Positions 5,343 through 39,419 of a stretch of DNA of 64,000 bases are shown in pieces. Numbering within the stretch: the first letter of the stretch is position 1; every line of letters begins with the position of its first letter. The notes under the pieces are model-generated. The model ran no database searches and had not been told where the DNA came from. It worked only from the letters and a program-made list of their open reading frames with translations. This DNA is from an uncultured Oscillospiraceae bacterium (GTDB lineage: Bacteria > Bacillota > Clostridia > UMGS1883): NCBI GenBank assembly GCA_964572985.1, contig CAZNIC010000005.1, positions 6,777 through 70,776 on the forward strand, given 5' to 3'. The translations under genes were made by a program, and so were the position numbers.

Positions 5343-5375
5343 TCCAAAACAAACAGGCGACCTCAGGTCGCCCCT
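5343..5375 (-). terminator. Terminator downstream of rfbF
   Basis: Hairpin GGCGACC-tca-GGTCGCC (5356-5372), followed on the minus strand by TGTTTGTTTT. Confidence 0.55.
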
Positions 5376-5381
5376 ACTTTT

Positions 5382-15935: not shown

Positions 15936-15945
15936 GGTGTGTCAC

Positions 15946-18449: not shown

Positions 18450-18580
18450 TTCAAAACTCCTTTTAGTCGTTGCTACAAACGAGCAACTCAAGTTACAAAT
18501 CACCATAATATTATTATAGTATCTTTCGACTTATTTTGTCAAATTAATTCTAGTTTTTCCAATACGTTGCCCTTTTCATT

Positions 18581-27345: not shown

Positions 27346-28368
27346 ATGTTATATTTCAAAAATGACTATTCAGAAGGTGCTCATCCCAAGGTCTTGGAGC
27401 ATCTTATCAAAACAAACCTTGAAAAGCTGGACGGCTACGGCGAGGACACATATTCCGCATCGGCAAAGGACAAAATCAGAAAAGCAGCAAACTGCCCCAA
27501 TGCAGAGATTTACTTTATCTCGGGCGGTACACAAACCAATCAGGTGGTTATTGCTACAATGCTTTCACGTTTCGAGGGCGTTGTGTGTGCAAAGACAGGT
27601 CACGTTGCATGCCACGAGGCGGGCGCCATTGAATACACAGGGCATAAGGTTATCACGCTTCCCGAATACGAGGGCAAAATCAAAACAGATGACCTTGTCA
27701 CACTTGTAGAAAACTTTTATGCCGACGACAGCCATGAGCATATGGTTTTCCCCGGCATGGTATACATATCTCACCCCACAGAATACGGCACGCTTTACAC
27801 AAAGGGCGAGCTTACAAGATTAAGTGAAGTGTGCAAAAAATATAACCTGCCGCTGTTTTTGGACGGCGCACGACTTGGCTACGCGTTGGCATCAGACACT
27901 GACGTTTCCCTTTCTGACATCGCGTCACTTTGCGATGTTTTCTACATAGGCGGCACAAAATGCGGCGCACTCTGCGGCGAAGCAGTTGTTTTCACAAAAA
28001 ACAATTGCCCCAAGCACTTTGTAAATCTTATAAAACAGCACGGTGCACTTATGGCAAAGGGCAGAATGTTGGGCGTGCAGTTTGATGCACTTTTTACAGA
28101 CAACCTTTACGTTGAGCTTTCAAAAAATGCTATAGAAACAGCACAAATGCTCAAGAACGTATTCCGCGAAAAGGGTTATCAGTTCTTTATTGATTCCCCC
28201 ACAAACCAAATTTTCATCGTCCTTGAAAACGAGCACAAAAAGAAAATTGAAGAAAACGTATGTATAACCTTTTGGGAAAAGTATGACGACAATCACTCTG
28301 TTGTCCGCTTTGCAACAAGCTGGGCGACAAGCAAAGAAGATGTACAAAAGTTAATAGAATTGCTTTAA
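27346..28368 (+). CDS. PLP-dependent threonine aldolase / beta-eliminating lyase family protein
   Basis: 340 aa. N-terminus FKNDYSEGAHPKVLEHL...GYGEDTYS and a PLP-Lys context GGTKCG. Confidence 0.8.
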   Translation: MLYFKNDYSEGAHPKVLEHLIKTNLEKLDGYGEDTYSASAKDKIRKAANCPNAEIYFISGGTQTNQVVIATMLSRFEGVVCAKTGHVACHEAGAIEYTGHKVITLPEYEGKIKTDDLVTLVENFYADDSHEHMVFPGMVYISHPTEYGTLYTKGELTRLSEVCKKYNLPLFLDGARLGYALASDTDVSLSDIASLCDVFYIGGTKCGALCGEAVVFTKNNCPKHFVNLIKQHGALMAKGRMLGVQFDALFTDNLYVELSKNAIETAQMLKNVFREKGYQFFIDSPTNQIFIVLENEHKKKIEENVCITFWEKYDDNHSVVRFATSWATSKEDVQKLIELL

Positions 28369-28370
28369 CT

Positions 28371-28412
28371 AAAAAAGGGAGTAAAAACAGTTAGTTTTTT
28401 ACTCCCTTTTTT
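28371..28412. terminator. Bidirectional terminator at the left edge of the TIR locus
   Basis: AAAAAAGGGAGTAAAAA-cagttag-TTTTTTACTCCCTTTTTT, lying between convergent genes. Confidence 0.8.
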
Positions 28413-28429
28413 AATAACAATTAAATCAG

Positions 28430-28810
28430 TTACTCTTCAATATGATTTTTTGCCCATACTGCTGCCGCTAATGCCGCAATACTAACGCATAACAAAAGTA
28501 TTTCTGCTGCACAAAACACTTTTAATGAAACAGGTAAAATAAGAAAGACTATAGTAATTAAAACGGTCAATATAAGATAAATCAAAGAAATAGTCGTAAA
28601 AAGTCCGTTTTGCATAACGTTTTCCGCCTTATCAAGTGCAGACAAACACAAAGATGAAAACAAAAGAGTATATGGTATAAATACAAATATTCCTGCAAAC
28701 AGCAGTTTCTCTGAGACATTTTCAACAAGAAGTGCTGCTACAACAATAACACCTATCATAATTACACAATATGAAATAAGAATAGGTAAAACTTTTTTTA
28801 AATCAAACAT
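28430..28810 (-). CDS. Small 4-TM membrane protein (last gene of the TIR/SPFH operon)
   Basis: 126 aa, almost entirely hydrophobic helices. It starts 12 nt after the stop of the SPFH gene. Confidence 0.65.
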   Translation of the reverse strand: MFDLKKVLPILISYCVIMIGVIVVAALLVENVSEKLLFAGIFVFIPYTLLFSSLCLSALDKAENVMQNGLFTTISLIYLILTVLITIVFLILPVSLKVFCAAEILLLCVSIAALAAAVWAKNHIEE

Positions 28811-28822
28811 TTTTATAACTCC

Positions 28823-30085
28823 TTACACCTTGATTCCGCACTCAAAGCAGAACTTTGCGCCCTCAACCAACAAGCTGCCGCAATTTATACAACGAACTGC
28901 CTGCTTTGCTCCGCATTCAAAGCAGAACTTTGCACCTCGAGGCAACTTTGCACCACAACTACAAATGACTCCCTCCACTGCCTCTTCTACGACGGGGTTC
29001 GCTACAGTTTCTGTCGGTGGTGTGTGTGCACTTTCCATAGTCTGCGTTGCAGGCTCAACCACATGTTGGACTGTAGACTGAATCGGTTGCGGTGCTGCGG
29101 CAGAATTCATGGCTCCACCTACCATATTTCCTACAACACCACCCATTGTCCCGCCAATTCCTGCTATCATGCCCATGCCAATTCCAAGATTTGCGAACTG
29201 ACCTGAACTCTCGTTTCCGGCAACCTTTTCCGCAACATCAAAGCTTCTTTCATCCTGATATGTATAGCCCTCAAGTCTACGTTTTTCAGCAAGAGACTGA
29301 GCTTCCATAATACGCATCTGCGATTCAGTTTGCTGTCTTATAAGGCTTACCTGCTGCTGTGTCTGCTCTTCAAAGATGTCAGTATATCTACGAGAGGTTA
29401 TTTCCTTAAGCTTACGATATGCAGGGTCGTCATCAGGTCTTACAACAGAGGCTATAAAGAACTGCTTTAAAGAAACACCGTATTCTGCAAAGTCATTAAC
29501 AAGAAGATTTTTTATAGCTTCCGATAAAATATCCAGCTGACTGTCAATTTCAAAAATATTCAGCTGTTGTTCTTTAATTGTTCTCGCAAGATATGATTTC
29601 ACACGACTCATCAAAAGAACTCTAAAGTATTTTATTAATCCTTCAGGTGAAATTGAAGTTTCTGTACCGACCAGTCTTACCAAAAAGCCTGCTGCATCTG
29701 CAATTTGAAGACTCATTTCACCGCTTGCGCCTATTTCCATAGGAAAATTATATGTAGGTTCAATAAATTGCACCTTACTATCTGTTCCCCATTTTAAAGC
29801 CATTTTTTCCACCTTATTTACAAAGTAAACTTCACAATGAAATGTACTTTCGCCTCCGGTGGGTATATTCATCAGCTTTCTTAACAAAGGGATATTTTCT
29901 GTTTTTAAAACATAACGACCTGCCGTGAAGACATCTGCTATCTGCCCGTTTTTCAAGAATATTGCTTCCTGAGATTCGTGTACAATAAGAGTTGATGATG
30001 TGTTAAAATCCTCCGCAGGATGCTTCCATACCAGAGTGTTATTATCCCCCTCATACTTAATTACTTCTAAAAACTTCATTTTCAA
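28823..30085 (-). CDS. YdjI-like SPFH/band-7 superfamily protein with a Gly/Met-rich linker and a C-terminal double zinc ribbon
   Basis: 420 aa. The N-terminal 230 aa resemble my recollection of the COG4260/YdjI family (IVHESQEAIFLKNGQIADVF..., EVYFVNKVEKMALKWGT). The linker reads GIGMGMIAGIGGTMGGVVGNMVGG. The C-terminus reads CSCGAKLPRGAKFCFECGAKQ...CINCGSLLVEGAKFCFECG. Confidence 0.75.
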   Translation of the reverse strand: MKMKFLEVIKYEGDNNTLVWKHPAEDFNTSSTLIVHESQEAIFLKNGQIADVFTAGRYVLKTENIPLLRKLMNIPTGGESTFHCEVYFVNKVEKMALKWGTDSKVQFIEPTYNFPMEIGASGEMSLQIADAAGFLVRLVGTETSISPEGLIKYFRVLLMSRVKSYLARTIKEQQLNIFEIDSQLDILSEAIKNLLVNDFAEYGVSLKQFFIASVVRPDDDPAYRKLKEITSRRYTDIFEEQTQQQVSLIRQQTESQMRIMEAQSLAEKRRLEGYTYQDERSFDVAEKVAGNESSGQFANLGIGMGMIAGIGGTMGGVVGNMVGGAMNSAAAPQPIQSTVQHVVEPATQTMESAHTPPTETVANPVVEEAVEGVICSCGAKLPRGAKFCFECGAKQAVRCINCGSLLVEGAKFCFECGIKV

Positions 30086-30090
30086 ACTCC

Positions 30091-32037
30091 TTATCTATAG
30101 AAATATGTATCAAACTGTTCCACTATAGGTGTCATTGTTTTATCAACCGTACTTCCCAATATCTCATACTTTTCTTTAAGTTCATATACAATATCTTCAA
30201 TACAAGGTTTAACCACATTAGCATAATGCTCATTTCTTTTCACGCCGGCATTTTTTGCTTCACGTCTTATTCCAATATCTCTTAACACCACAACAATCGC
30301 CGACGCACTTGCTATAATAAATAAGATTACAGCTATAATATTTCCGTCAAGCAGTTCAAACACCATAACCGGAATTAATGCGCCAAGAACAACCAAAACA
30401 ACAAAACCTATACATCCGAATGTAATATCCGCGATTTCAAATCTGCTGTTGATAAGCACATACAAAGCTATTGACCATACAAAAGGCATCAGACCACTAA
30501 CATCAACAAAGGGCATCAGCAGTGCAGAAACCAGCAAAATCAGAGCACATACTATATCCTTTTTTTCGCCAAACAAACCTATGCCTTTCTTGCTTTTTTC
30601 ATCAAGCTCAATAAGCTTTTGATATTGTTCTGCATAATTTTGTTTTAGTTTGCCGACCAGATATTTTTCTCCGTCTCTTACATTATGTTGAAACTCTTTT
30701 TGCGTATTTTTATATTCCTGTTTGTGTTGTTGCGCTCTTCGTGCTTTTTCTGCCAACACCTCACTGTCCATATAGCTGCCGAGCGAATAAAAGTGTTGAA
30801 TCGCCTGTTCATAGTCTCCCTGTTCCAAGCACTCCTGTCCTTGTTTGTAAATTCGCTTGTTCAGGGTCATCTGCTCAAACGAATTCAACAAATTTTTCGT
30901 CTCTTCATCGGCAAACTGTTTTGCTCTTTTAAACATCAAGTTGTTTTCCCATACAATGTCAATGGAAAGGTCGTTAAGATTTCGTGCTTCATTATCTGCC
31001 AGCAACGCATAGAAATGTGCCTTTCCGTTTTCCGGCTGTACGTCTAACAGCTTGCTTATTCTGGTCTTAGCCCGAATAAAATTACGTTCCTTTAAATCCC
31101 GCTCAATTTCATCTATAGGATCAATATTATCTACCGGATGCGCTTTTTTTCCTACAACTTTCAATATACCGGCTATCAAATCCTGCATCGCACCGGGCTT
31201 GCTCCAATCTATTGCCGAGGTGTACGGGATTTCCCTGGGCAATCGGTCCTTGTCCATTCCGATACATATCGGATATAATTGTTTTCGTTTGTCCTTTTCC
31301 ATTATTGCCAAATATCGTTTCCACTCATTTTTTACCCAACGGGCATTGATATGATGTGGTTCGTCTGCGATAAGAAGCATTATTTTTGCAGAGTTAAGTG
31401 CCGCATAAATACGTGGCTCGTAGTCTTTTCCCAACATGTTTTCAAGAGTCACTCTTGAAAAGAACACCTTCACGCCTTCTTTTTCCAGTTGCGTATATAT
31501 TTCTTGCGCCTCAATACTGCCTCTTGTTCTCTCCCCATTATCTTTTTCAGCTTTGAAGCATATGAACACATCGTACGGCTTTTCTTTTCTTGATATTTCT
31601 AAAAATTTTTGTTGGATATCGGCAATTCTCATTGCCTCTTTACGATAAATATCCCTCTGATATTCATCTGCATATTTTAACGCATTAAGATAGTCTGAAT
31701 CATCTAATACGTTTTTGTCACTCAATCTGCTGCATGTAGGCAAATATTCTCCTTTTCGCACATCCTTCTCGTACTCAATACCATATCTGCACAGCATCAA
31801 ATTCCAGTAGGCCTCTGCTTCGCTGCTATCTTCCGCTATGATTTGTTGATATGCCAAGTATGCCTCGTCAAATGAACCCATTTGCCTAAAAGTATTTCCT
31901 CGATTGTAAAAATACGCTTTCTTGTCATCATCAATTTTCGGCAGTGTTACCTCGCAACCGCAGCTATCACAGATGCCATGAGTTTCACCGCTTATCTGAA
32001 TACTGCCCCCGCAAATTTTACATTTTAATATTGTCAT
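30091..32037 (-). CDS. Zn-ribbon / TPR-like / TIR-domain / C-terminal 4-TM protein (paralog B)
   Basis: 648 aa. CxxC...CxxC at aa 6-26. TIR-like core at aa ~154-297 (YDVFICFKAEKD...VFFSRVTL...SAKIMLLIADEPHHINARWVKNEWKRY). Hydrophobic helices at aa ~495-600. Confidence 0.75.
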   Translation of the reverse strand: MTILKCKICGGSIQISGETHGICDSCGCEVTLPKIDDDKKAYFYNRGNTFRQMGSFDEAYLAYQQIIAEDSSEAEAYWNLMLCRYGIEYEKDVRKGEYLPTCSRLSDKNVLDDSDYLNALKYADEYQRDIYRKEAMRIADIQQKFLEISRKEKPYDVFICFKAEKDNGERTRGSIEAQEIYTQLEKEGVKVFFSRVTLENMLGKDYEPRIYAALNSAKIMLLIADEPHHINARWVKNEWKRYLAIMEKDKRKQLYPICIGMDKDRLPREIPYTSAIDWSKPGAMQDLIAGILKVVGKKAHPVDNIDPIDEIERDLKERNFIRAKTRISKLLDVQPENGKAHFYALLADNEARNLNDLSIDIVWENNLMFKRAKQFADEETKNLLNSFEQMTLNKRIYKQGQECLEQGDYEQAIQHFYSLGSYMDSEVLAEKARRAQQHKQEYKNTQKEFQHNVRDGEKYLVGKLKQNYAEQYQKLIELDEKSKKGIGLFGEKKDIVCALILLVSALLMPFVDVSGLMPFVWSIALYVLINSRFEIADITFGCIGFVVLVVLGALIPVMVFELLDGNIIAVILFIIASASAIVVVLRDIGIRREAKNAGVKRNEHYANVVKPCIEDIVYELKEKYEILGSTVDKTMTPIVEQFDTYFYR

Positions 32038-32055
32038 ATTATTACCACCTTTTTA

Positions 32056-34053
32056 CTAATTTGCTTTTTCAATATCCAATGTCATCTTCCATGTATCCCA
32101 GGGTTTCTTTTCTTCTGTTCCGATTAAATCGCTATACTCTGTCTGTAATTTTTCTTTTACTTTTGCGCTTAACGGAGCAATAACTTTTTTCTGATACCCC
32201 GCACATTTCTTTGCGGCAGCTCTCCATCTTTTTCCTCTGATTGTCGAACTGATGATATTAAACAGGCAAATCAATGTGTGTATCAGCATCAAAAGAAAAA
32301 CAATGATTGCCACAACGCTCCTTAAAGGTTGTATAATATAAATAAAAGCAAGTATCAGTCCCGGAACTCCCGCAACAAAAGCGCTTACTACAATTTGCAG
32401 AATAATGCCAAAAAAACTTTCGTTGTACATTTCTGTTATATCCGCATATTCGTTGCTCATCCACGCCAAGGACGCTACAAGTCCTCCGCAGAAAATAAAG
32501 GGACTTAACAAGTAGATTATCGTCAGCGGCAACGTCATATTGTCGGGCAAATCCAGATTCATTAAATCTCTGCCGAACAATACACTGCCCAATATTATCG
32601 AATAATAGAGCCCGCTTAAAAAAACTGTTATCATTGCAATTACAGGCATTTTCAAACAACAAATACCCTTTGTGCCGGCTTCTTTTGAATATTCCGCATA
32701 CAAATCCGTATACTCTTTGTATTCTTTAGGATATGTACTTGCAATTTCTTCCCTGAGATATTTTGTAGAATTTTTACAAATCTCTATGTAATTTTTTTTC
32801 GCCTGAGCTTTTTCTGTGTATTCCAGCTGGCAACGAATTTTGCTTTCATATTTTTTCAGATATTCAAGCAAAATGTTACGAACAGCATTTCCACCATATT
32901 CTGCCAACATTTTAAAGCTCATATCGTTTACAAGCGCATTTTCATCAACAGTTTTCTTGAAAATATCATCCAATGATTTCAAATCATACTTTAGAAGCAA
33001 CATTTTAATATGAATTTTTTCCTCATTCATATATTCATGCACATAACTTTCAAGCAGTGCCAAGGCGTCCTCTTTTTTCCCGTCTTCCAAATATTGATCC
33101 GCTCTCATCATCAGCAAATCAATATTGCTTCCAATCGTTCCTAACGCCTTTCCTGTTTGATTTTTACCCAAATGACTAAGTATGTTTTCAGTCAAAGTTT
33201 CAATCGCACCCGGGTTATTTAATTCAATCGCCTGAATTCCTCGCGGGATTTCCGCAGGCAATTCCTTTGGTGAAACATCAACACATACTGGAATAAAAAG
33301 CTTTCCGGGATCTTCGTCGCACATTGACAAGTATCTTTTCCACTCACTTTTGACCCAGGGAGAATTTATGTTTCCACTCTCATCAGCAATCACCAACATT
33401 ATCTTTGCTGATTGCAGTGCCGCAAAAACAAGTGGTTCATATTCATCAGAGGAAGGCTTTGGTTCTACTCTTGAAAAAAACGCATGTACTCCCTCGCATT
33501 GCAGTCGATTATATATTCCCTGTGCACTTGCGTGGGCTCTTGATGTTTTTTGTGCACTGAATTTATTATTACAGCATATGAACACATCGCAAGGACCGCC
33601 TCGGTTTAATGCATCCATACTCTTTTCCCTAATATATTCAATTTTATCTGCTTCGGCACGATACAATTCTTTATTATAATAGTCGGCATTATCCACTGCG
33701 GCAAGGTAATCTATATCATCATAAATAGGTTTATTGTTTACTTTGCAGCAGGTCGGAATATATTCTCCATTTTCAACATCTAATACGTATTCAACCCCAT
33801 ATCTACACAGCATCAAACACCAATGCGCCTCTGCATCCTCCCTGTCCATTGCGATAAGATGTTCATAGGCAGACTCTGCTTTTTGATAGTTTCCTAACAT
33901 TCTGAAGTGATTTGCTCTATTATACATTTCCACTCTTTCATTGTCAGTTTTTTTCGGCAGACTTATCTCTCCTCCACAGCTGTCACATACGCCATGAGTT
34001 CCCCCTACAATCCGGATATTGCCTCCGCACATTCTGCATTTTAATATTGTCAT
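32056..34053 (-). CDS. Zn-ribbon / TPR-like / TIR-domain / C-terminal multi-TM protein (paralog A)
   Basis: 665 aa with the same architecture as paralog B. TIR-like core at aa ~154-296 (CDVFICCNNKF...AFFSRVEP...SAKIMLVIADESGNINSPWVKSEWKRY). The N-termini of the two paralogs are nearly identical (MTILKC[KR][IM]CGG). Confidence 0.75.
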   Translation of the reverse strand: MTILKCRMCGGNIRIVGGTHGVCDSCGGEISLPKKTDNERVEMYNRANHFRMLGNYQKAESAYEHLIAMDREDAEAHWCLMLCRYGVEYVLDVENGEYIPTCCKVNNKPIYDDIDYLAAVDNADYYNKELYRAEADKIEYIREKSMDALNRGGPCDVFICCNNKFSAQKTSRAHASAQGIYNRLQCEGVHAFFSRVEPKPSSDEYEPLVFAALQSAKIMLVIADESGNINSPWVKSEWKRYLSMCDEDPGKLFIPVCVDVSPKELPAEIPRGIQAIELNNPGAIETLTENILSHLGKNQTGKALGTIGSNIDLLMMRADQYLEDGKKEDALALLESYVHEYMNEEKIHIKMLLLKYDLKSLDDIFKKTVDENALVNDMSFKMLAEYGGNAVRNILLEYLKKYESKIRCQLEYTEKAQAKKNYIEICKNSTKYLREEIASTYPKEYKEYTDLYAEYSKEAGTKGICCLKMPVIAMITVFLSGLYYSIILGSVLFGRDLMNLDLPDNMTLPLTIIYLLSPFIFCGGLVASLAWMSNEYADITEMYNESFFGIILQIVVSAFVAGVPGLILAFIYIIQPLRSVVAIIVFLLMLIHTLICLFNIISSTIRGKRWRAAAKKCAGYQKKVIAPLSAKVKEKLQTEYSDLIGTEEKKPWDTWKMTLDIEKAN

Positions 34054-34079
34054 TCTTTCTTCTCTCCTAATACAGTATT

Positions 34080-34134
34080 GTTTGATTTTGATATATTCAC
34101 AAATTAATGCTTTACAAACACATCAAAATCAAAC
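34080..34134. promoter_or_regulatory. 13-bp perfect inverted repeat bracketing a weak promoter-like sequence upstream of TIR paralog A
   Basis: GTTTGATTTTGAT (34080-34092) and ATCAAAATCAAAC (34122-34134), 29 nt apart. Between them, on the minus strand, is TTGTAA-16-TATATC. RBS GGAGAG lies at about 34063-34068. Confidence 0.4.
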
Positions 34135-34139
34135 ATGTT

Positions 34140-34178
34140 TTAAAAAGATAGTGTGACATAAAACGTCACACTATCTTT
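34140..34178 (-). terminator. Terminator/attenuator-like hairpin between the first membrane-protein gene and TIR paralog A
   Basis: 14-bp stem AAAGATAGTGTGAC (34144-34157) / GTCACACTATCTTT (34165-34178). On the minus strand it is followed by TTAAAAC. It begins 8 nt after the stop at 34186. Confidence 0.5.
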
Positions 34179-34185
34179 ACAACCG

Positions 34186-34683
34186 TTATTTTGTCACTTT
34201 TATATAAGACTTTCTGTCCGCGGAAGCTTCGCCAACGTATTCACCGTTTGCGTTATATACCTTTGTGCCGTCAATATATAATATTTCTCCGTTTTCACCA
34301 ACAACTTCAGTTGGGCTCATTAACGTCCAAACTGCACCGATAAAGAATACCGCAATCTTGAATGTAATACCCAATCCAGATATAAGTATAGATATAAACA
34401 ACCTGCTCTTTAAAAAATCAGGACATTTACGATATATATTCCACCAGCAGAATGCACTTATAGCAGCTACTATTAAAGCACCCAACGCGGACGCAAACTC
34501 ACCACGGATTATACATGCTACTGTAGCAGCTACCCCCACAGGCAGACAGAGACACAAATATGCACTGACGCGTCCGTATACGCCAAAAGCTTTAAAAAGA
34601 CCGGTTGTCTTGCTTTCTTTAAATGCGCAGATTATTCCAAGAATCAACAAAACCAGTGCTGCAACAATCATTACGCCTTCCAT
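34186..34683 (-). CDS. Small membrane protein (4 TM plus a ~45-aa soluble tail); first gene downstream of the invertible segment
   Basis: Start moved to MEGVMIVAALV (34683), which has a GGAGG RBS at 34692-34696. The longer track ORF (to 34737) would run through inverted-repeat site IR-L. Confidence 0.65.
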   Translation of the reverse strand: MEGVMIVAALVLLILGIICAFKESKTTGLFKAFGVYGRVSAYLCLCLPVGVAATVACIIRGEFASALGALIVAAISAFCWWNIYRKCPDFLKSRLFISILISGLGITFKIAVFFIGAVWTLMSPTEVVGENGEILYIDGTKVYNANGEYVGEASADRKSYIKVTK

Positions 34684-34709
34684 TTTTATTCCTCCTTCCC
34701 TGATAATAC

Positions 34710-34732
34710 ACCACATAATAACAATTATGTGG
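34710..34732. repeat. IR-L: lox-like recombination-site candidate ACCACATAATAACAATTATGTGG
   Basis: It is the exact reverse complement of 34939-34961. It has 9-bp palindromic arms CCACATAAT/ATTATGTGG around an asymmetric AACA core. Confidence 0.8.
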
Positions 34733-34876
34733 TGCATTTAACTTACCAAATAATATTTTAATAACAGCGTATCTGTATTATGACACAACAAAAAAGACCA
34801 ATGTGCCTAAACTTTTTCATTGGTCCTTTTGTTGTACTTCTCTTTCATCAAAAACCACTTATATTGTTTGAAATTA

Positions 34877-34904
34877 TTGACATTTTGATATTTTATGCTA
34901 TAAT
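34877..34904 (+). promoter_or_regulatory. Consensus sigma-A type promoter inside the IR-flanked segment (currently facing away from the operon)
   Basis: TTGACA (34877-34882), 16-nt spacer, extended -10 TGcTATAAT (34896-34904). Confidence 0.7.
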
Positions 34905-34938
34905 TATTACCAATGGGATATATGTATTTCCCAAAGTG

Positions 34939-34961
34939 CCACATAATTGTTATTATGTGGT
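34939..34961. repeat. IR-R: lox-like recombination-site candidate CCACATAATTGTTATTATGTGGT
   Basis: It is the exact reverse complement of IR-L, with core TGTT. It lies 10 nt downstream of the recombinase stop codon and is followed by TCTTTTTTATTTT. Confidence 0.8.
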
Positions 34962-34971
34962 CTTTTTTATT

Positions 34972-35811
34972 TTAACACCTTAGCAATCCCAGCTTCTGTA
35001 TTTGGTTGCGGTGAATTTCGCCGCTTTCCATTGTATATATTCGGGTTGTATTTACATTTGAGTGACCTAAAATATCTGCAAGCCTTACTACATCCCTTTG
35101 AATGGAATAATACGTTCTTGCAAACAAATGTCTCAAATTGTGCGGAAACACCTTTTTCTCTGATACGCCTGCTTTCTTACAGAGTTTTTTCATATCTTTC
35201 CATATATTTGAACGGTCAAGCGGATTTCCGTTTTTGCTCACAAAAACAGGTCCTTTCTTAATCTTCTCTTTTTTTATAAAGTTTTTCAGCATCTTACACA
35301 ACATTACAGGCAATATAACTACCCTCAACTTCCCTTTGCAGTTAATTGTTGCCTGCCCTCTTTCCACAGCCTCTACCGTAATACATTTCAATTCCGATAC
35401 TCGTATCCCGGTAGAGCATATTGTCTGCATCAAAAAGAAAAGCTTTCTGTTTTTCTTTTTCTTTGCTGTGTCAATAAGCATTTCATACTCCTTTTTTGTA
35501 AGCTCTTTTTCTTGATTTATAAATATCTGTTTTTGAATTTTTACAAATTTTACTTTTAAGTTATTCCACCCTTTAAATAAAAAAAACGAGTTTATCGAAG
35601 AGAGCATTGAATTCACACTAACGGGAGCATATTGTTCAATTAATAAATTTTTGTATTCAAGCATAACCTCTTTATCAATTATTTTACCCTTGCTATATTC
35701 CGCAAATGCCTTAACATCCCGAATATATTTATCAGTAGTTGCTTTTGATTTTTCCTCCGCTATAAGAAACGTTTTAAATTCTTTTATCATGTCATCTGTA
35801 ATTTCTCTCAT
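34972..35811 (-). CDS. Tyrosine-type site-specific recombinase (short, Xer/invertase-like)
   Basis: About 279 aa. Catalytic signature: STGIRVSEL (Arg), HNLRHLF (His-x-x-Arg) and LGHSNVNTTRIY (His ... Tyr). It has an N-terminal SAM-like core-binding domain and no large arm-binding domain. The ATG at 35811 is preferred over the TTG at 35820. Confidence 0.88.
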   Translation of the reverse strand: MREITDDMIKEFKTFLIAEEKSKATTDKYIRDVKAFAEYSKGKIIDKEVMLEYKNLLIEQYAPVSVNSMLSSINSFFLFKGWNNLKVKFVKIQKQIFINQEKELTKKEYEMLIDTAKKKKNRKLFFLMQTICSTGIRVSELKCITVEAVERGQATINCKGKLRVVILPVMLCKMLKNFIKKEKIKKGPVFVSKNGNPLDRSNIWKDMKKLCKKAGVSEKKVFPHNLRHLFARTYYSIQRDVVRLADILGHSNVNTTRIYTMESGEIHRNQIQKLGLLRC

Positions 35812-35861
35812 ATATGTCAAATCCTTTCCGACAATTTTTTCATAATCATTTTATCACCAAT

Positions 35862-35905
35862 AAAACAAAACCACACTGTGCAAAAAACAAGTGTGGTTTT
35901 GTTTT
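35862..35905 (-). terminator. Terminator of the nucleotidyltransferase-fusion gene (right edge of the AT-rich locus)
   Basis: AAAACAAAACCACAC ... GTGTGGTTTTGTTTT. Confidence 0.75.
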
Positions 35906-38261
35906 ATTTCAGTATTTCATCTATGCAAAAATCGCACAGCTCTCTTGCTGTTTCATAGTTTGTGCTCTCTCCGACGACATGGCACACCTCTTTGTTGCCG
36001 TCGGGCATTACCACAACCCAGCCTTTATCAAGGGTTATTTTTACGCCCTCGGAGCTTTCGGCATTGTTGCGGCTAAGATGCTTTATTTTTCCCATTACCT
36101 TTTCTATTTCGCCTTTTGGTATCTCGATAACCGTTTTTGCAATTGTAATCGGTGGTATTTGGTTTATAAGGGTTTCGATATCCTCTCGGGCAAAATAATC
36201 CACAAGCTTTATTACCGAACCTACAGCATCATAGCGGAATATATATTCATCCGAGACAATTTCTTTTCCTTTTATGCTGTCATCCGGAACAAGAGGCTCC
36301 CGCACTATTTCGCAGCCGTGTTTTTCTGCCAGCATATCTATTGCAGAGGAGGCTGTTAACGGAACGTGTATTGTTGCGCCTTTGTGCTTTTTCATTATTA
36401 CAAGACAGGTGAGTGCCATATATGCCTCATCGTCAAGTGTGCGTCTTTTAGGCAGCACCACGGTAAGTTTTTCGCATTTTGCATCTATAACAAAGCCAAT
36501 GTCAAAGCCGCCTAAATCAACGCTTTGCTCAAAAGCCTTCTTTTGGGCGACGGATATTACCTCGTACGGCATATACATACTTATCGAGCAACCAAAGTCT
36601 GCCATTGCTGAGCTTATCAGCCTTCTGCCCCATATGGCAGGACAGGCGAGGAGTATTTTGAGGGGTTTGCGTTTTTTATCGGTGTATCCTACCAAGCTTT
36701 TGAGATAATGTATTTTATATTCAAAAAGGTATTCGCTCTCTGTAATTTTTTTGCTCTCAGGATAAAGAAAATCTCCTTTTTCAAAATAGTCTTCCATTCT
36801 TCCGCGTACAGTTTCCCCAACCTCTGCTCCGTCGCTGCCTATTATATCAATCATTGCCACATCTTCGCCGTCTTTTTCAACAACGCTTATACTAATTGCA
36901 CCTTTAAGCATGTAAAAAAGAACTCCGCGCCGTGTTATTGGGAGCGGCTGTTCGCCGAAATCCTTCACACGACACCCCATGCCCAAAAGCCCTGCCACAA
37001 CGGCATCTCTTACCATTATCCCTGCCGCACTGCCATCGGTTGCAACACCTATTTCTCCACCGTCAAAGCCTGCACCCGCACACTCCCCCAGCATAGTGCA
37101 AAACCTTGGCGTTATGTCTGCATTGATAACGCCTTCAATAACACCTTTTTTATACAGTCTCGTCCTTTTTTTCTGTCCCCACAAAACGTTCTCCGAGACA
37201 GTTATGCAATCCTCAAGTGTTTTTTCGGGCCATATTTTCACAAAGGAGCGTACCGTAACAGCCTCGCCTATTTTGGTGCTTTTTCCTATCACCGCCTGTT
37301 CAAGCACTGTTGTATTATCGCCTATTATTACCCCTTCGTCTGCGATACATCCTCTGAGAGATACGTTTTTTCCGATACGGCAACCTTTCAAAACTATGCT
37401 TCGTTTAAGACTTGCGCCCTCTTTTACAACTGTGCCTTCACCTATGTGAGAATACGCTCCCACCTTTGCGCCTTTGTGTATGTGCGCGTTTTTTCCGATA
37501 TAACACGGTGCTTCCAACAGTGCACCCTTTTCAACAATTGCTCCTTCACTAACCATTATGCCCTTTGCCCGTTTCTTTTTTAAACACTCTAAAAAGCTGA
37601 AGCCCGCACGCATAAATGAGGGGATATCCTCGACGCTTATGACGGTTTCCGAGGTACTCATTGCATATATGCTTTTGCCTGCCCGAACAAGAGAAGGAAA
37701 AACATTTTCAAAAAGGTCGGTGCTCATATCTTCGGGGATGAAGCGGATTATGTCTCTGCTAAGCATATATACTCCCGCACCCTTTTCGTCGCCGGTAATA
37801 CTGTTCCAAAGGCGTTTTTCCTCAATGCGGTTGATCCTGCAGTCGCCTCCGATTGAAATTCGATTTCCCGAATTTTTTGCCACAAGGATTGTTGCATATG
37901 CCCCTCTTTGGTGATGAAATTTAACAAGACGTGAGAAATCCGCTTCACTGTAAATAAGTTTTGAAAAATACAAAAACTCCTTTGCAAGTACATCACCATG
38001 GGTTTTAAGTCCGCCGTCCTCAAAGTCAGTTTTTGCATATTGTATTTTGATTCCGTCATAGTCATTCCCGAGGCTTTTTTCTACTTCGTCGCCCATGTAA
38101 CCGGTTATGATGACAACCTCCGTAACGGAGTGTTTTTTCAAATTTTCTATAAGCCTTTGTATGAGATATTTATCTCCCATGGTTATCAGTCCCGCCGGCT
38201 TGGTACAGCTTAATGGTCTGAGTCTCGTTCCTTCTGAGGATATATTTATAACCGCCTGCAT
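35904..38261 (-). CDS. Sugar-phosphate nucleotidyltransferase / left-handed beta-helix / phosphohexomutase-like fusion protein
   Basis: Start at MQAVINISS. The N-terminus is NTP-transferase-like (SEGTRLRPLSCTKPAGL). The middle carries hexapeptide repeats. The C-terminal ~400 aa follow the PGM/PMM four-domain pattern, ending GWVVVMPDGNKEVCHVVGES. Confidence 0.75.
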   Translation of the reverse strand: MQAVINISSEGTRLRPLSCTKPAGLITMGDKYLIQRLIENLKKHSVTEVVIITGYMGDEVEKSLGNDYDGIKIQYAKTDFEDGGLKTHGDVLAKEFLYFSKLIYSEADFSRLVKFHHQRGAYATILVAKNSGNRISIGGDCRINRIEEKRLWNSITGDEKGAGVYMLSRDIIRFIPEDMSTDLFENVFPSLVRAGKSIYAMSTSETVISVEDIPSFMRAGFSFLECLKKKRAKGIMVSEGAIVEKGALLEAPCYIGKNAHIHKGAKVGAYSHIGEGTVVKEGASLKRSIVLKGCRIGKNVSLRGCIADEGVIIGDNTTVLEQAVIGKSTKIGEAVTVRSFVKIWPEKTLEDCITVSENVLWGQKKRTRLYKKGVIEGVINADITPRFCTMLGECAGAGFDGGEIGVATDGSAAGIMVRDAVVAGLLGMGCRVKDFGEQPLPITRRGVLFYMLKGAISISVVEKDGEDVAMIDIIGSDGAEVGETVRGRMEDYFEKGDFLYPESKKITESEYLFEYKIHYLKSLVGYTDKKRKPLKILLACPAIWGRRLISSAMADFGCSISMYMPYEVISVAQKKAFEQSVDLGGFDIGFVIDAKCEKLTVVLPKRRTLDDEAYMALTCLVIMKKHKGATIHVPLTASSAIDMLAEKHGCEIVREPLVPDDSIKGKEIVSDEYIFRYDAVGSVIKLVDYFAREDIETLINQIPPITIAKTVIEIPKGEIEKVMGKIKHLSRNNAESSEGVKITLDKGWVVVMPDGNKEVCHVVGESTNYETARELCDFCIDEILK

Positions 38262-38280: not shown

Positions 38281-38661
38281 CTATAATATATTTGAAATTT
38301 TGATTTTGTTCCTTTTGTATATATGCTCAAACTGCAACCTGAGTTTACCAATTGTCATCAAAGAGCTTTCAACGTTATTTTGCCTGATATTTTCACCAAG
38401 CTCCGTCAACAGCAGATTTACCGCGTCAGTATCTTCATGGGAAGTAATAGCATCAAGAATGTCTTCATTCTGTGTCCATTTTTTCTTAAGAAGAGAAAAT
38501 TTTTCTTTTGCCCCGTCCAAATCGTTCTCCTGTACGTTGGCAGTGATTTCATCCAGCTCATTAATATTGGATGAAATCACCTTTTCAATTTTTCCGCTCT
38601 CATACAGACACAAGGCAACTATCAAAAAAAGTAATACTGCCGCAACAGTCATTCTACGCAT
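38281..38661 (-). CDS. DUF4363-like small membrane-anchored protein
   Basis: 126 aa with an N-terminal TM helix followed by a helical domain. It is paired with a DUF421 gene, a pairing I recall as common in spore-formers. Confidence 0.6.
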   Translation of the reverse strand: MRRMTVAAVLLFLIVALCLYESGKIEKVISSNINELDEITANVQENDLDGAKEKFSLLKKKWTQNEDILDAITSHEDTDAVNLLLTELGENIRQNNVESSLMTIGKLRLQFEHIYKRNKIKISNIL

Positions 38662-39340
38662 GTTTTTTTCCGTTCCTTTCCTGTACGCATATTATTTTTG
38701 AATCAAGGGCACTCAGATACAGGATGTCTCTCATATGCTTGATTTTTCTTTTTCGCATTTCTTTTTCAATATCCTTTAGGGTAAGCTTCGCCTCATCAAG
38801 GTCCTTTTTTCTTATTTTGCCGTCTGCAACAACAATGAAGGGTGTTATGTTTTCTTCGCCTTCTATGTCTACATCACCTATTTTAACGGGCGACGCTTCT
38901 TTTTTTGCAATCACCGACACCTGTCCGTTTGTTTCGATTACGATTTCTGATATTTCGTTCAGACTTGTATAGCCGTTGATACGTATTTGTTCTTCGATAT
39001 CATCCACAGTAACCCTGAGCTGTTGCATCTGTTTTTCGCAGAGCTTTCCCTCCCTCACAAGTCTGCAGCTGTGCCCTACCAGAATACGGCGTATAATCCT
39101 GCTTTTAAGTATGAGATACGCAAACAAAAGCTCAAGTATTACAAGCGTAAAAATAGGGATTATTCCGTCTGCCAACGGAGCCGCCTTTGACTGCATGGGA
39201 ACAGTGGCAAGGTCAGATATCATAATCGAAACAACAAGCTCTGTAGGGTGCATTTCACCTATAGTACGCTTGCCCATAATCCGCATTGCAAGTATTACCG
39301 AAATATACAGTATTATAGTTCTTATAAATGACAGACCCAT
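38654..39340 (-). CDS. DUF421 (YetF-like) membrane protein
   Basis: Start at MGLSFIRT (GGAGG RBS). The motif RIMGKRTIGEMHPTELVVSIMISDLA is typical of DUF421. Confidence 0.8.
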   Translation of the reverse strand: MGLSFIRTIILYISVILAMRIMGKRTIGEMHPTELVVSIMISDLATVPMQSKAAPLADGIIPIFTLVILELLFAYLILKSRIIRRILVGHSCRLVREGKLCEKQMQQLRVTVDDIEEQIRINGYTSLNEISEIVIETNGQVSVIAKKEASPVKIGDVDIEGEENITPFIVVADGKIRKKDLDEAKLTLKDIEKEMRKRKIKHMRDILYLSALDSKIICVQERNGKKHA

Positions 39341-39419
39341 CTTTTTGCCTCCAAACGGTAAATTCACTATATATTGTGTCCTTATGGCAAAAATTTATTC
39401 TGCCCGCGATGCCTTTATG

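What the first reader, a model, noticed from the sequence alone, without database searches (positions are those of the whole stretch)
28430..35811. Candidate undescribed membrane-associated TIR system: two ZnR-TPR-TIR-TM paralogs, a YdjI-like SPFH zinc-ribbon protein and two small membrane proteins
Five co-directional genes are tightly packed. The gaps among the last four are 18, 5 and 12 nt. In order they encode a 4-TM protein, TIR paralog A, TIR paralog B, an SPFH/YdjI-like protein with a double zinc ribbon, and a second 4-TM protein. TIR domains are NAD+-consuming or signal-generating effectors in Thoeris, in CBASS/Pycsar effectors and in 2TM-1TM-TIR type systems. As I recall, the YdjI homolog in Bacillus subtilis is encoded with PspA and the zinc-ribbon/membrane proteins YdjG and YdjH, in an envelope-stress operon reported to respond to phage and membrane damage. 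Here the zinc-ribbon membrane partners carry TIR domains. That suggests a module coupling membrane perturbation, for example phage entry or lysis, to TIR activity. I know of no named defence system with this gene set.
Basis: partly seen in the sequence, partly recalled or inferred. Interest (0 to 1): 0.85.

Follow-up and report, generated by a model that had tools for sequence, protein, structure and literature searches.

The report
Phase-variable membrane TIR–SPFH gene cassette
A strain-specific 7.5-kb cassette in an uncultured gut Clostridia genome puts two membrane-anchored TIR (NAD-cleaving type) proteins, a flotillin-like SPFH scaffold protein and a small membrane protein behind a flip-flop promoter; the gene combination is widespread in Clostridia but appears undescribed, and its suspected role in phage defence is unproven.

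Summary
In detail: the genes, domains and spacings are as described. Profile and fold searches confirm TIR (catalytic Glu invariant), TPR, N-terminal zinc ribbon, 4 C-terminal TM helices, and an SPFH/Band_7_1 protein with a C-terminal double zinc ribbon.

Three things change the picture.
- The adjacent tyrosine recombinase belongs to the unit. Its two 22-bp sites, inverted relative to each other, flank a 206-bp segment carrying a perfect sigma-70 promoter. That promoter points away from the operon, so the assembly shows the OFF state.
- The conserved core is SPFH-ZnR + 4TM protein + ZnR-TPR protein(s). This triad recurs across Lachnospiraceae, Blautia, Enterocloster and Oscillospiraceae. The third component carries TIR in 12 of 20 well-sampled loci and lacks it in most others. 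This supports the YdjG/H/I analogy. The upstream 165-aa 4TM gene is not a conserved member.
- The cassette is absent from four closely related genomes. However, neighbourhoods of homologous loci are mostly housekeeping, there are no PADLOC hits, and the module is almost absent from viral contigs.

Best reading: a phase-variable membrane TIR effector module built on a YdjI-type scaffold. A defence or abortive-infection role is plausible (about 0.45) but unproven. I found no description of it in the searchable literature.

The parts
34972..35820 (-). Tyrosine site-specific recombinase (279 aa from ATG 35811; 282 aa from TTG 35820), the putative invertase of the adjacent promoter segment
   Evidence: Pfam Phage_integrase 1.2e-28 and SAM-like N domain. 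NCBIfam Xer-type hits, with weak hits to tyrosine-type DNA invertase models. HxxR and the catalytic Tyr context (LGHSNVNTTRIY) are visible in the translation. 62-67% identical orthologs sit in the same position in L001 and L003.
34939..34966 (.). Recombinase-proximal inverted-repeat arm; core site CCACATAAT-TGTT-ATTATGTGG at 34939-34960
   Evidence: 28-nt inverted repeat, 93% complementary, 206 nt between arms. Each arm is itself a 9-4-9 palindrome. The two sites differ only in the central 4 nt, which are reverse complements (read). Equivalent sites occur in L001 and L003.
34733..34938 (.). 206-bp invertible segment
   Evidence: Lies between the two inverted sites. Segments of 233 and 246 nt lie between perfect 21- and 26-nt IRs at the same place in L001/L002 and L003.
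34877..34904 (+). Consensus sigma-70 promoter TTGACA-16-TG-TATAAT inside the invertible segment. It points away from the operon (OFF state). After inversion it would map to about 34794..34767 on the minus strand and read into 4TM-1.
   Evidence: The only 12/12 match in 7.8 kb. The best promoters in L003 (11/12) and L001 are also on the strand opposite to the operon. An independent assembly, L017, has the same orientation.
34705..34732 (.). Operon-proximal inverted-repeat arm; core site CCACATAAT-AACA-ATTATGTGG at 34711-34732
34186..34683 (-). 4TM-1: 165-aa membrane protein (about 4 TM helices plus a 40-aa tail). Lineage-specific passenger, not a conserved member of the module.
   Evidence: RBS GGAAGGAGG upstream of ATG 34683. 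Hydropathy. No Pfam, NCBIfam or PADLOC hit. Absent from L001, L003, L015, L076, L079 and L080. Only 5 homologs found.
34079..34178 (-). Two strong RNA hairpins between 4TM-1 and TIR-A. The first (34144-34178) is terminator-like. The second (34079-34135) is a 19-25 bp stem just upstream of the TIR-A RBS.
   Evidence: Inverted repeats I15 and I7. Fold energy -46.8 kcal/mol against -24.7 for shuffles, z = -6.9. No Rfam family.
32056..34053 (-). TIR-A (665 aa): ZnR (C6, C9, C23, C26), TPR, beta-hairpin/helix, TIR (about 155-295, putative catalytic E237), helical region 310-460, 4 TM (about 468-606), C-terminal helix
   Evidence: Pfam. Invariant columns across 54 homologs. AF2 models. Foldseek TIR hits. 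Alignment to L6 TIR places WVKSEW on WCLMEL.
30091..32037 (-). TIR-B (648 aa): paralog with the same architecture; Glu retained (WVKNEW)
28823..30085 (-). SPFH (Band_7_1) protein with a Gly-rich low-complexity linker and a C-terminal double zinc ribbon; no TM. YdjI/COG4260-type architecture.
   Evidence: Band_7_1 2.7e-40, DZR 1.7e-9. No TM. 64-72% identical orthologs in L001, L003 and L015. More than 7,300 homologs at E<=1e-10.
28430..28810 (-). 4TM-2 (126 aa): conserved small 4-TM partner encoded immediately after SPFH
   Evidence: Orthologs of 125-144 aa directly downstream of SPFH in L001, L003, L015, L018, L076, L079 and L080. Profile-profile match to the 4TM part of the about 235-aa '4TM + RYSDP helical' family that follows SPFH in more distant loci (prob 78.6%, E 1.7e-5). 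Negative control against the TIR TM domains: prob 0.3%.
28370..28413 (.). Perfect 18-bp hairpin flanked by A/T runs; bidirectional terminator between the operon and the convergent aldolase gene
   Evidence: I5.
28359..35896 (.). Limits of the strain-variable cassette
   Evidence: blastn to related genomes L071 and L075 is continuous to 28358 and resumes at 35897-35910. Those genomes carry about 720 bp with an HTH_26 gene instead. GC is 34-40% against 42-47% in the flanks. No direct repeats at the borders.

Best explanation
The locus is a strain-variable, phase-variable operon. A tyrosine recombinase flips a 206-bp promoter segment, and the assembly captures the OFF state.

When ON, the promoter would drive 4TM-1 and, by read-through of two hairpins, TIR-A, TIR-B, the SPFH protein and 4TM-2.

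The last four genes encode a membrane complex modelled on the Bacillus YdjG/YdjH/YdjI module:
- The soluble SPFH-zinc-ribbon protein is held at the membrane by the 4TM protein and by the two ZnR-TPR proteins.
- Here the ZnR-TPR proteins have acquired a TIR domain with an intact catalytic glutamate and their own 4-TM anchor.

Proposed mechanism (inferred):
1. Perturbation of the membrane, most plausibly by phage infection, reorganises the SPFH lattice.
2. This clusters the TIR domains.
3. Clustering switches on NAD+ cleavage or signal production, causing growth arrest or abortive infection.
4. Phase variation limits the cost.

What is shown: gene content, domains, conserved residues, synteny, accessory status and inverton anatomy. 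What is inferred: physical interactions, the trigger, NADase activity and the defence role. Confidence is about 0.9 for the anatomy, about 0.8 for phase variation and about 0.45 for the defence or abortive-infection function.
For: Domains and fold.

Catalytic glutamate: Glu and Trp of the WxxxE motif are invariant in 54 and in 19 homologs. They align to the L6 TIR motif SKWCLMEL.

Inverton:
- 28-nt IR with 9-4-9 half-site structure, next to the recombinase, enclosing the only perfect promoter.
- The same arrangement, with related core sites, occurs in L001/L002 and L003.
- An independent serine-recombinase version sits upstream of an SPFH-4TM-TIR module in L082: 22-nt IRs, 145 nt between them, and an 11/12 promoter in the OFF direction.

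Conserved linkage:
- In 20 loci retrieved by SPFH similarity alone with at least 3 kb on both sides, 12 have ZnR-TPR-TIR proteins.
- In a wider set of 23 non-redundant loci (these plus three retrieved through TIR), 20 have the 4TM partner.
- TIR-less loci carry a ZnR-TPR protein in the same slot.

YdjGHI precedent for membrane recruitment of a TM-less SPFH protein: PMC8581546, PMC9239133.

Signatures typical of conflict genes:
- The cassette is missing from four related genomes.
- TIR and 4TM proteins are 31-43% identical where SPFH and the recombinase are 62-67%.
- Tandem TIR paralogs are common, up to 5 in L004.
- There are about 3,000 50%-identity clusters of the N-terminal module, with highly variable C-termini.
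- Some copies lie next to R-M genes (L015) or phage lysis genes (L082).
Against: - No PADLOC model matches any protein.
- Neighbours of 10 homologous TIR+SPFH loci are mainly housekeeping. Only a few proteins (not enumerated in the output; mad3/mad6/mad8, PD-T4-6, MkoA and a kinase model among those listed) of 122 give PADLOC hits, and no complete system is evident.
- Several close relatives (L076, L079, L080) are single-TIR operons with no recombinase, in core-gene contexts.
- The module is virtually absent from 2.9 M viral contigs.
- TIR-less versions show that the scaffold works without TIR.
- No second orientation of the invertible segment was seen: L017 is identical, and all four assemblies are OFF.
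- The hairpins after 4TM-1 could stop transcription before TIR-A.
- No downstream effector (ThsA-like) is present, so a signalling role for the TIR domains has no obvious receiver.
- No experiment of any kind exists.
Confidence: 0.45

Rival explanations
1. This is an envelope-stress or membrane-organisation module, a Clostridial elaboration of ydjGHI, with no immune role. SPFH, the 4TM protein and the ZnR-TPR proteins organise or repair membrane domains. The TIR domain tunes NAD+ or nucleotide levels, or merely oligomerises, in response to membrane stress.
For: - Architecture parallels YdjG/H/I.
- TIR-less triads are common.
- Neighbourhoods are housekeeping and there are no PADLOC hits.
- The SPFH family is very large, with more than 7,300 hits.
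- Regulators such as an ECF-sigma-like protein (L015) and Crp-like proteins (L008, L012) sit beside some modules.
Against: - No PspA or other repair effector is in the cassette.
- The cassette is dispensable: it is absent from four close relatives.
- It is phase-variable.
- The invariant catalytic Glu, fast-evolving TIR proteins and tandem paralogs fit conflict genes better than housekeeping stress genes.
Confidence: 0.3
2. The proteins are transmembrane receptors for signals from outside the cell. The wider ZnR-TPR-TIR family has one TM helix followed by LRR, RCC1, DUF6273 or WG domains, which is a TLR-like layout. On this reading the TIR proteins transduce extracellular cues (phage receptor-binding proteins, host or competitor molecules) on an SPFH platform. 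The window's 4-TM versions would be ligand-domain-less co-receptors.
For: - A TM helix lies between TIR and the C-terminal LRR, RCC1 or DUF6273 domains in L005, L007 and L009.
- C-termini are very diverse across about 3,000 clusters.
- DUF6273 occurs in phage receptor-binding proteins (PMC10743442, listed).
- Phase variation is typical of surface-exposed functions.
Against: - TIR-A and TIR-B have only short extracellular loops, so nothing in this window can bind an external ligand.
- No downstream signalling partner has been identified.
- The topology is predicted only.
Confidence: 0.15
3. The recombinase is the integrase of a small mobile cassette rather than an invertase. On this reading the inverted repeats are incidental or are its attachment sites, so the operon is not phase-variable.
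For: - The whole 7.5-kb block, including the recombinase, is an indel relative to related genomes.
- The Pfam family is the phage integrase family.
Against: - The repeats flank only 206 bp containing a perfect promoter, not the cassette.
- The sites are in inverted orientation, differing only by a reverse-complemented 4-nt core.
- There are no direct repeats at the cassette borders.
- The same recombinase-IR-promoter-operon layout is conserved in L001 and L003 in other genomic contexts.
Confidence: 0.05

Closest known systems
Bacillus subtilis pspA-ydjGHI (YdjI SPFH protein with YdjG and YdjH membrane partners)
   Same: - A TM-less SPFH/Band 7 protein with a low-complexity linker and a C-terminal zinc finger.
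- It is encoded with a multi-TM protein and with a protein that starts with an N-terminal zinc ribbon.
- TIR-less Clostridial triads bridge the two.
   Different: - No PspA.
- The zinc-ribbon partner has TPR + TIR + 4 TM and is duplicated.
- Gene order differs.
- Control is by an invertible promoter rather than sigma-W.
Thoeris and other TIR-effector defence systems (ThsB, TIR-SAVED, TIR-STING, SPARTA TIR-APAZ, SpbK)
   Same: TIR fold with the conserved catalytic Glu position. Oligomerisation-driven NADase activation is a plausible mode of action; that rests on established knowledge of these families, not on a test here.
   Different: - No ThsA, SLOG, SAVED, STING or Argonaute partner.
- No PADLOC hit at E<=0.1 for the window's proteins.
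- A distant relative gives only a weak ThsB-type TIR hit (E 0.0012).
- The TIR domain is embedded in a ZnR-TPR...TM protein and linked to SPFH.
Rst_2TM_1TM_TIR (three-gene membrane/TIR system from P2/P4 hotspots; recalled from memory)
   Same: Small membrane proteins encoded together with a TIR protein.
   Different: - No profile similarity detected in PADLOC-DB. That the database holds this system's models is my recollection.
- Here TIR and TM are fused in one protein.
- An SPFH protein is present.
- The host range is Clostridia.
Invertible promoters (invertons) of gut bacteria, e.g. C. difficile RecV switches (cwpV, flgB) and Bacteroides capsule promoters
   Same: A short IR-flanked promoter segment beside a site-specific recombinase, giving ON/OFF expression of an operon.
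   Different: The cargo is a TIR-SPFH module. No paper in the searchable library pairs 'inverton' with 'TIR domain'. The switch has not been shown to flip.
Animal Toll-like receptors (architectural analogy only, and for the wider family)
   Same: Relatives have a cytoplasmic TIR, a single TM helix and an LRR or other repeat ectodomain.
   Different: - Opposite polarity: TIR is N-terminal.
- An added ZnR-TPR module.
- The TIR is of the enzymatic type.
- The window's own proteins have no ectodomain.

Membership tests
TIR domain superfamily (Pfam TIR_2, PF13676) | Profile match above the curated threshold | tested here: met
   41.0 and 39.5 bits against a cutoff of 28
TIR domain superfamily (Pfam TIR_2, PF13676) | Flavodoxin-like TIR fold | tested here: met
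   AF2 pLDDT 83. Foldseek top hits are TIR domains (L7, SPARTA, SARM1, AbTir, SpbK, MyD88) with target-normalised TM 0.6-0.7.
Enzymatic (NADase) TIRs | Conserved catalytic glutamate in the WxxxE / SxWCxxEL motif | tested here: met
   E237 of TIR-A (WVKSEW) and the equivalent in TIR-B (WVKNEW) are invariant in 54 homologs. They align to the Glu of L6 SKWCLMEL. That this is the catalytic residue of L6 rests on published knowledge.
Enzymatic (NADase) TIRs | NAD+ cleavage or cADPR-isomer production | not testable with these tools
   Needs a biochemical assay
YdjI / COG4260-type SPFH proteins | Band_7_1 SPFH domain plus C-terminal zinc ribbon, no TM segment | tested here: met
   Band_7_1 2.7e-40, DZR 1.7e-9. 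No hydrophobic segment. Matches the description of YdjI in PMC8581546.
pspA-ydjGHI-type operon | Co-encoded multi-TM protein and N-terminal zinc-ribbon protein | tested here: met
   4TM-2 and TIR-A/B. The triad recurs in most of about 40 informative loci.
pspA-ydjGHI-type operon | PspA/IM30 gene in the operon | tested here: not met
   None of the six cassette proteins hits PspA_IM30, and there are no other ORFs in the cassette.
Thoeris | ThsB-type TIR plus a ThsA effector (SIR2, TM or Macro with SLOG) | tested here: not met
   No PADLOC ThsA or ThsB hit for any cassette protein. No such domain in Pfam.
CBASS / Pycsar | Oligonucleotide or cyclic-nucleotide cyclase gene | tested here: not met
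   No cyclase domain among the cassette proteins
Rst_2TM_1TM_TIR | Profile similarity to the system's three proteins | tested here: inconclusive
   No PADLOC hit at E<=0.1, but I could not verify that the library contains these models. The architecture differs: TIR is fused to TM, and an SPFH protein is present.
Inverton (invertible promoter) | Inverted repeats flanking a promoter, adjacent site-specific recombinase | tested here: met
   Conserved in L001/L002 and L003.
Inverton (invertible promoter) | Both orientations present in a population | not testable with these tools
   Only assemblies are available. The window, L017, L001, L002 and L003 all show the promoter facing away from the operon. 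Raw reads are needed.
Defence-island resident | Homologs enriched next to known defence genes | tested here: not met
   Only a few of 122 neighbours of 10 loci give PADLOC hits at 1e-8 (models mad3/mad6/mad8, PD-T4-6, MkoA, a kinase). The rest are housekeeping. The sample is small and no background rate was computed. Isolated adjacencies exist to R-M (L015; window type I R-M 10 kb away) and to prophage lysis genes (L082).

The most novel reading that the evidence does not exclude
The ZnR-TPR-TIR proteins are a large family of bacterial transmembrane TIR receptors, with about 3,000 clusters at 50% identity. They are TLR-like in layout: a cytoplasmic enzymatic TIR, a TM region and, in many members, LRR, RCC1 or lectin-like ectodomains. 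On this reading they assemble on an SPFH/flotillin-like platform and convert events at the cell envelope (phage adsorption or injection, membrane damage) into TIR activation. That would be a previously unrecognised membrane-surveillance immune pathway of gut Clostridia. In some lineages it is kept under stochastic ON/OFF control by two unrelated kinds of DNA invertase.
Probability: 0.22. Interest if true: 0.9.

Novelty: new variant of a known kind. Interest (0 to 1): 0.62.

Why it matters
TIR enzymes are central to immunity in bacteria, plants and animals. How bacterial TIRs are switched on at the membrane is largely unknown, and no defence or signalling system that uses an SPFH (flotillin/stomatin-like) scaffold turned up in the searched library or in PADLOC.

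A conserved TIR-SPFH-4TM module gives a concrete, testable link between membrane-microdomain scaffolds and TIR activation. It occurs in abundant gut Clostridia and has natural TIR-less controls. Relatives carry receptor-like ectodomains.

The invertible promoter adds a case of phase-variable control of a potentially suicidal enzyme. It is found with a tyrosine recombinase here and with a serine recombinase in another lineage. It also offers a simple handle, locked ON versus locked OFF, for experiments.

If the module turns out to be an envelope-stress device rather than an immune one, it would still extend the poorly understood YdjGHI/Psp network.

Tried and rejected
- **Direct proof of inversion.** An independent assembly of the same locus (L017, SRR14307658) has the identical OFF orientation. 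L001 and L002, from two samples, are also identical. Searching viral contigs for the L082 repeat gave only unrelated single-site matches with no SPFH, TIR or recombinase nearby.
- **Mobile-element borders.** No direct or inverted repeats at the cassette ends.
- **Are the TM domains of TIR-A/B related to the standalone 4TM proteins?** No: hhalign probability 0.2-0.3%.
- **Are 4TM-1 and 4TM-2 paralogs?** No.
- **Is 4TM-1 a system component?** Rejected. It is absent from all homologous cassettes. Its only long-contig homolog sits at a contig end beside an HTH gene.
- **Structured RNA or riboswitch in the intergenic regions.** No Rfam match above noise.
- **Sequence search of solved structures.** Only weak L6/L7 TIR and designed TPR hits for TIR-A, and nothing for the SPFH protein.
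- **Serine-recombinase loci L020, L022 and L024.** Their inverted repeats are weak (71-76% complementary) or too close together (18-50 nt) to call invertons. Only L082 is convincing.
- **Literature.** Searches for TIR+SPFH, inverton+TIR, Band_7_1+TIR and SPFH+anti-phage found no description of such a system.
- **Thoeris-like partner.** A weak SIR2_2 hit in L011 has no PADLOC support.

Full report
**1. Observation**

- Gaps between TIR-A, TIR-B, SPFH and 4TM-2 are 18, 5 and 12 nt. The second is 11 nt if SPFH starts at ATG 30079, as gene callers chose in L017.
- The first small membrane gene really starts at ATG 34683 (165 aa, RBS GGAAGGAGG). The longer mechanical ORF begins inside a recombination site.
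- This gene is separated from TIR-A by 132 nt that fold into two very stable hairpins (z = -6.9).

Pfam supports every domain call:
- TIR_2 above threshold in both paralogs.
- TPR in both paralogs.
- Band_7_1 at 2.7e-40.
- A double zinc ribbon at 1.7e-9.

Other protein-level checks:
- The paralogs are 33% identical end to end.
- An alignment of 54 homologs shows four invariant Cys (C6, C9, C23, C26) forming an N-terminal zinc ribbon.
- AF2 models (pLDDT 83 for residues 1-320; 76 for the full length) give ZnR, TPR, a beta-hairpin, a TIR fold, a helical region and four TM helices.
- Foldseek against the PDB returns TIR domains only: L7, SPARTA TIR-APAZ, SARM1, AbTir, SpbK, MyD88.
- The motif WVKSEW in TIR-A (WVKNEW in TIR-B) aligns to SKWCLMEL of flax L6. 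This puts an invariant Glu (E237) at the position of the catalytic glutamate of NADase TIRs. The role of that L6 residue is taken from the literature, not tested here.
- The SPFH protein has no TM segment.

**2. The recombinase and invertible promoter are part of the unit**

Immediately upstream lies a tyrosine recombinase (Phage_integrase 1e-28). Between it and the first gene there is a 28-nt inverted repeat, 93% complementary, with arms at 34705-34732 and 34939-34966 and 206 nt between them.

Each arm is itself a 9-4-9 palindrome:
- CCACATAAT-AACA-ATTATGTGG
- CCACATAAT-TGTT-ATTATGTGG

The two sites differ only in a reverse-complemented 4-nt core. That is the layout of a tyrosine-recombinase site pair in inverted orientation (read).

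Inside the segment is the only 12/12 sigma-70 match in 7.8 kb: TTGACA-16-TATAAT with an extended -10 TG. It is on the plus strand and so points away from the operon. This assembly therefore shows the OFF state.

Two homologous cassettes from other samples have the same layout: recombinase (62-67% identical), perfect 21- or 26-nt inverted repeats with a related core (ACATAAT-N-ATTATGT) 233-246 nt apart, and the best promoter again on the opposite strand (L001/L002 and L003).

I could not show flipping. The one independent assembly of the same locus has the same orientation.

**3. The cassette is accessory**

Four genomes or metagenome contigs with at least 90% identical MurA share the flanking synteny but lack the cassette. 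Homology is continuous to window 28358 and resumes at 35897-35910. In between, the relatives have about 720 bp with a small HTH gene.

The cassette has lower GC than its flanks and no terminal repeats. The organism is an uncultured Clostridia bacterium.

**4. What is conserved elsewhere**

Using only the SPFH protein as bait, I retrieved 10 loci from species-representative genomes and 53 from metagenomes. A few more came via protein look-ups.

Self-built profiles show a recurrent triad:
- SPFH-ZnR.
- A 4-TM protein immediately downstream. It is 125-160 aa as here, or about 235 aa with an extra helical domain carrying an RYSDP motif.
- One or more proteins with the N-terminal ZnR-TPR module.

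The window's 4TM-2 matches the 4-TM part of the longer family (hhalign 78.6%, E 1.7e-5). The TM domains of the TIR proteins do not match it (0.2-0.3%), which serves as a control.

Among 20 SPFH-retrieved loci with at least 3 kb on both sides, 12 carry TIR-containing ZnR-TPR proteins. Seven of the 15 TIR-bearing loci in the wider 23-locus set have two or more. Most of the rest carry soluble, TIR-less ZnR-TPR proteins in the same slot.

The module is a Clostridial relative of the Bacillus ydjGHI arrangement, in which a soluble SPFH protein with a C-terminal zinc finger depends on a zinc-ribbon membrane protein and a second membrane protein (PMC8581546, PMC9239133). In roughly half of the lineages the zinc-ribbon partner has acquired a TIR domain. 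Homology to YdjG and YdjH themselves was not tested.

The upstream 165-aa 4TM-1 protein is not part of this. It is missing from every other cassette and has five homologs in 5.8 billion proteins.

**5. The wider TIR family**

The 300-residue N-terminal module defines about 3,000 clusters at 50% identity (E<=1e-30). It is almost always at residues 1-300 of proteins of 480-1,500 aa.

C-termini vary. Some are multi-TM as here. Others have a single TM helix followed by DUF6273, RCC1, LRR or WG repeats. The latter layout places a cytoplasmic TIR opposite a probable ectodomain. Tandem arrays occur, with five paralogs in L004.

Within the inverton cassettes, TIR and 4TM proteins are 31-43% identical where SPFH and the recombinase are 62-67%.

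**6. Is it a defence system?**

For:
- Invariant catalytic Glu.
- Accessory status.
- Rapid divergence and paralog expansion.
- Phase variation.
- Occasional adjacency to R-M genes (L015; a type I R-M lies 10 kb away in the window).
- One copy beside prophage lysis genes (L082).

In L082 a small serine recombinase and 22-nt inverted repeats enclose a 145-nt segment with an 11/12 promoter. That promoter again faces away from an SPFH-4TM-X-TIR operon. So an unrelated invertase family appears to control the same module.

Against:
- No PADLOC model hits any component.
- The 122 genes flanking ten TIR+SPFH loci are overwhelmingly housekeeping. Only a few give PADLOC matches at 1e-8, to the models mad3/mad6/mad8, PD-T4-6, MkoA and a kinase.
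- Close relatives sit in core-gene contexts without a recombinase.
- 2.9 million viral contigs contain no close SPFH homolog and only two TIR relatives.
- TIR-less triads show that the scaffold has a TIR-independent function.

**7. Mechanism I commit to**

An invertase-controlled promoter switches the operon ON in a subpopulation. The TM-less SPFH protein is recruited to the membrane by 4TM-2 and by TIR-A/TIR-B. Disturbance of the membrane, most plausibly during phage infection, reorganises the SPFH assembly and brings the TIR domains together. The clustered TIRs then cleave NAD+ and stop growth.

Only the parts list, residues, synteny and switch anatomy are shown. Every functional step is inferred from what is established for YdjI and for oligomerisation-activated TIR NADases.

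Confidence:
- About 0.9 for the anatomy.
- About 0.8 for phase variation.
- About 0.45 for the defence or abortive-infection function.
- About 0.3 for the main rival, a non-immune envelope-stress module.

An open technical point is whether transcripts from the flipped promoter pass the terminator-like hairpin after 4TM-1. In L001 and L003 the switch abuts the first TIR gene directly.

**8. Novelty**

Full-text searches found no paper that links SPFH and TIR in one system, or invertons with TIR domains. The library is limited to open-access papers and bioRxiv.

It fails membership tests for Thoeris, CBASS/Pycsar and (as far as testable) Rst_2TM_1TM_TIR. I class it as a new variant of a known kind: a TIR-effector module on a YdjI-type SPFH scaffold under inverton control.

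Interest is moderate to high because the module is widespread, has natural TIR-less controls and is easy to test. It is tempered by the lack of defence-island signal and of any functional data.

Noticed in passing
L082:4234-10463 (IMGVR_UViG_3300031555_010668): A small serine recombinase (Resolvase, 6e-27) is followed by 22-nt inverted repeats (5201-5222 / 5368-5389, 91% complementary) enclosing 145 nt. That segment carries an 11/12 promoter facing away from an SPFH-4TM-153aa-TIR operon. Phage lysis-like genes lie just upstream. This looks like a second, unrelated invertase type controlling the same module.
   Followed up: partly
L020:258-935, L022:1978-2595, L024:9244-9867: Small serine recombinases (YxRVSSxDQ motif; Resolvase + HTH_7 in L024) sit directly upstream of SPFH in three TIR-less SPFH-4TM-ZnR-TPR loci. 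The intergenic inverted repeats there are weak (71-76% complementary) or too closely spaced (18-50 nt) to call invertons.
   Followed up: partly
window 12648-18506 (-): A complete type I restriction-modification system (HsdR 1095 aa, HsdS 335 aa, HsdM 517 aa) in a low-GC stretch. It lies about 10 kb from the cassette, with housekeeping genes in between.
   Followed up: partly
window 34054-34185 (-): Two unusually stable hairpins between 4TM-1 and TIR-A (-46.8 kcal/mol, z = -6.9). The first is terminator-like. The second has a 19-25 bp stem abutting the TIR-A ribosome-binding site. No Rfam match. They could gate read-through from the invertible promoter.
   Followed up: partly
L015:4075-5937 (GCA_022792885.1): A 620-aa protein with ECF-type sigma-70 regions 2 and 4 at its N-terminus heads a TIR-TIR-SPFH-4TM operon that lacks a recombinase. 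A type IIG R-M gene pair lies 2 kb upstream.
   Followed up: no
L008:7077-7700 and L012:12272-12877 (Blautia): A roughly 205-aa cNMP_binding (Crp-like) protein (5e-6 and 5e-5, just below the Pfam cutoff) is adjacent to the TIR-SPFH-4TM module. It lies on opposite sides in the two genomes, which hints at a functional link as regulator or nucleotide receptor.
   Followed up: no
L004:3-8518 (GCA_965343555.1): Five ZnR-TPR-TIR-multiTM paralogs in tandem fill an entire 8.5-kb contig.
   Followed up: no
L011:9009-9995: A 328-aa protein with a weak SIR2_2 match (E 0.002, below cutoff) lies between the 4TM gene and the TIR gene. It has no PADLOC hit. If real, it would be a Thoeris-like effector candidate.
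   Followed up: partly
window 38281-39367 (-) and L080:5582-6639, L081:2-993: A DUF421-DUF4363 gene pair lies next to the TIR-SPFH module in L080 and L081. In the window it lies near the module, separated by one gene. This may reflect a shared insertion region or be coincidence.
   Followed up: no
L026:14699-18881: An 889-aa HerA/FtsK-like ATPase (DUF87, 4e-10) and a 502-aa protein directly follow the two TIR paralogs of an SPFH-4TM-TIR-TIR locus.
   Followed up: no
L055:2654-8042, L056, L060: A TIR-less variant of the module: SPFH-4TM followed by a 666-aa soluble ZnR-TPR protein and two membrane proteins of about 580 and 533 aa. One of these has weak DUF2207_C and ZorA-like hits. The arrangement is conserved in three metagenome contigs.
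   Followed up: no
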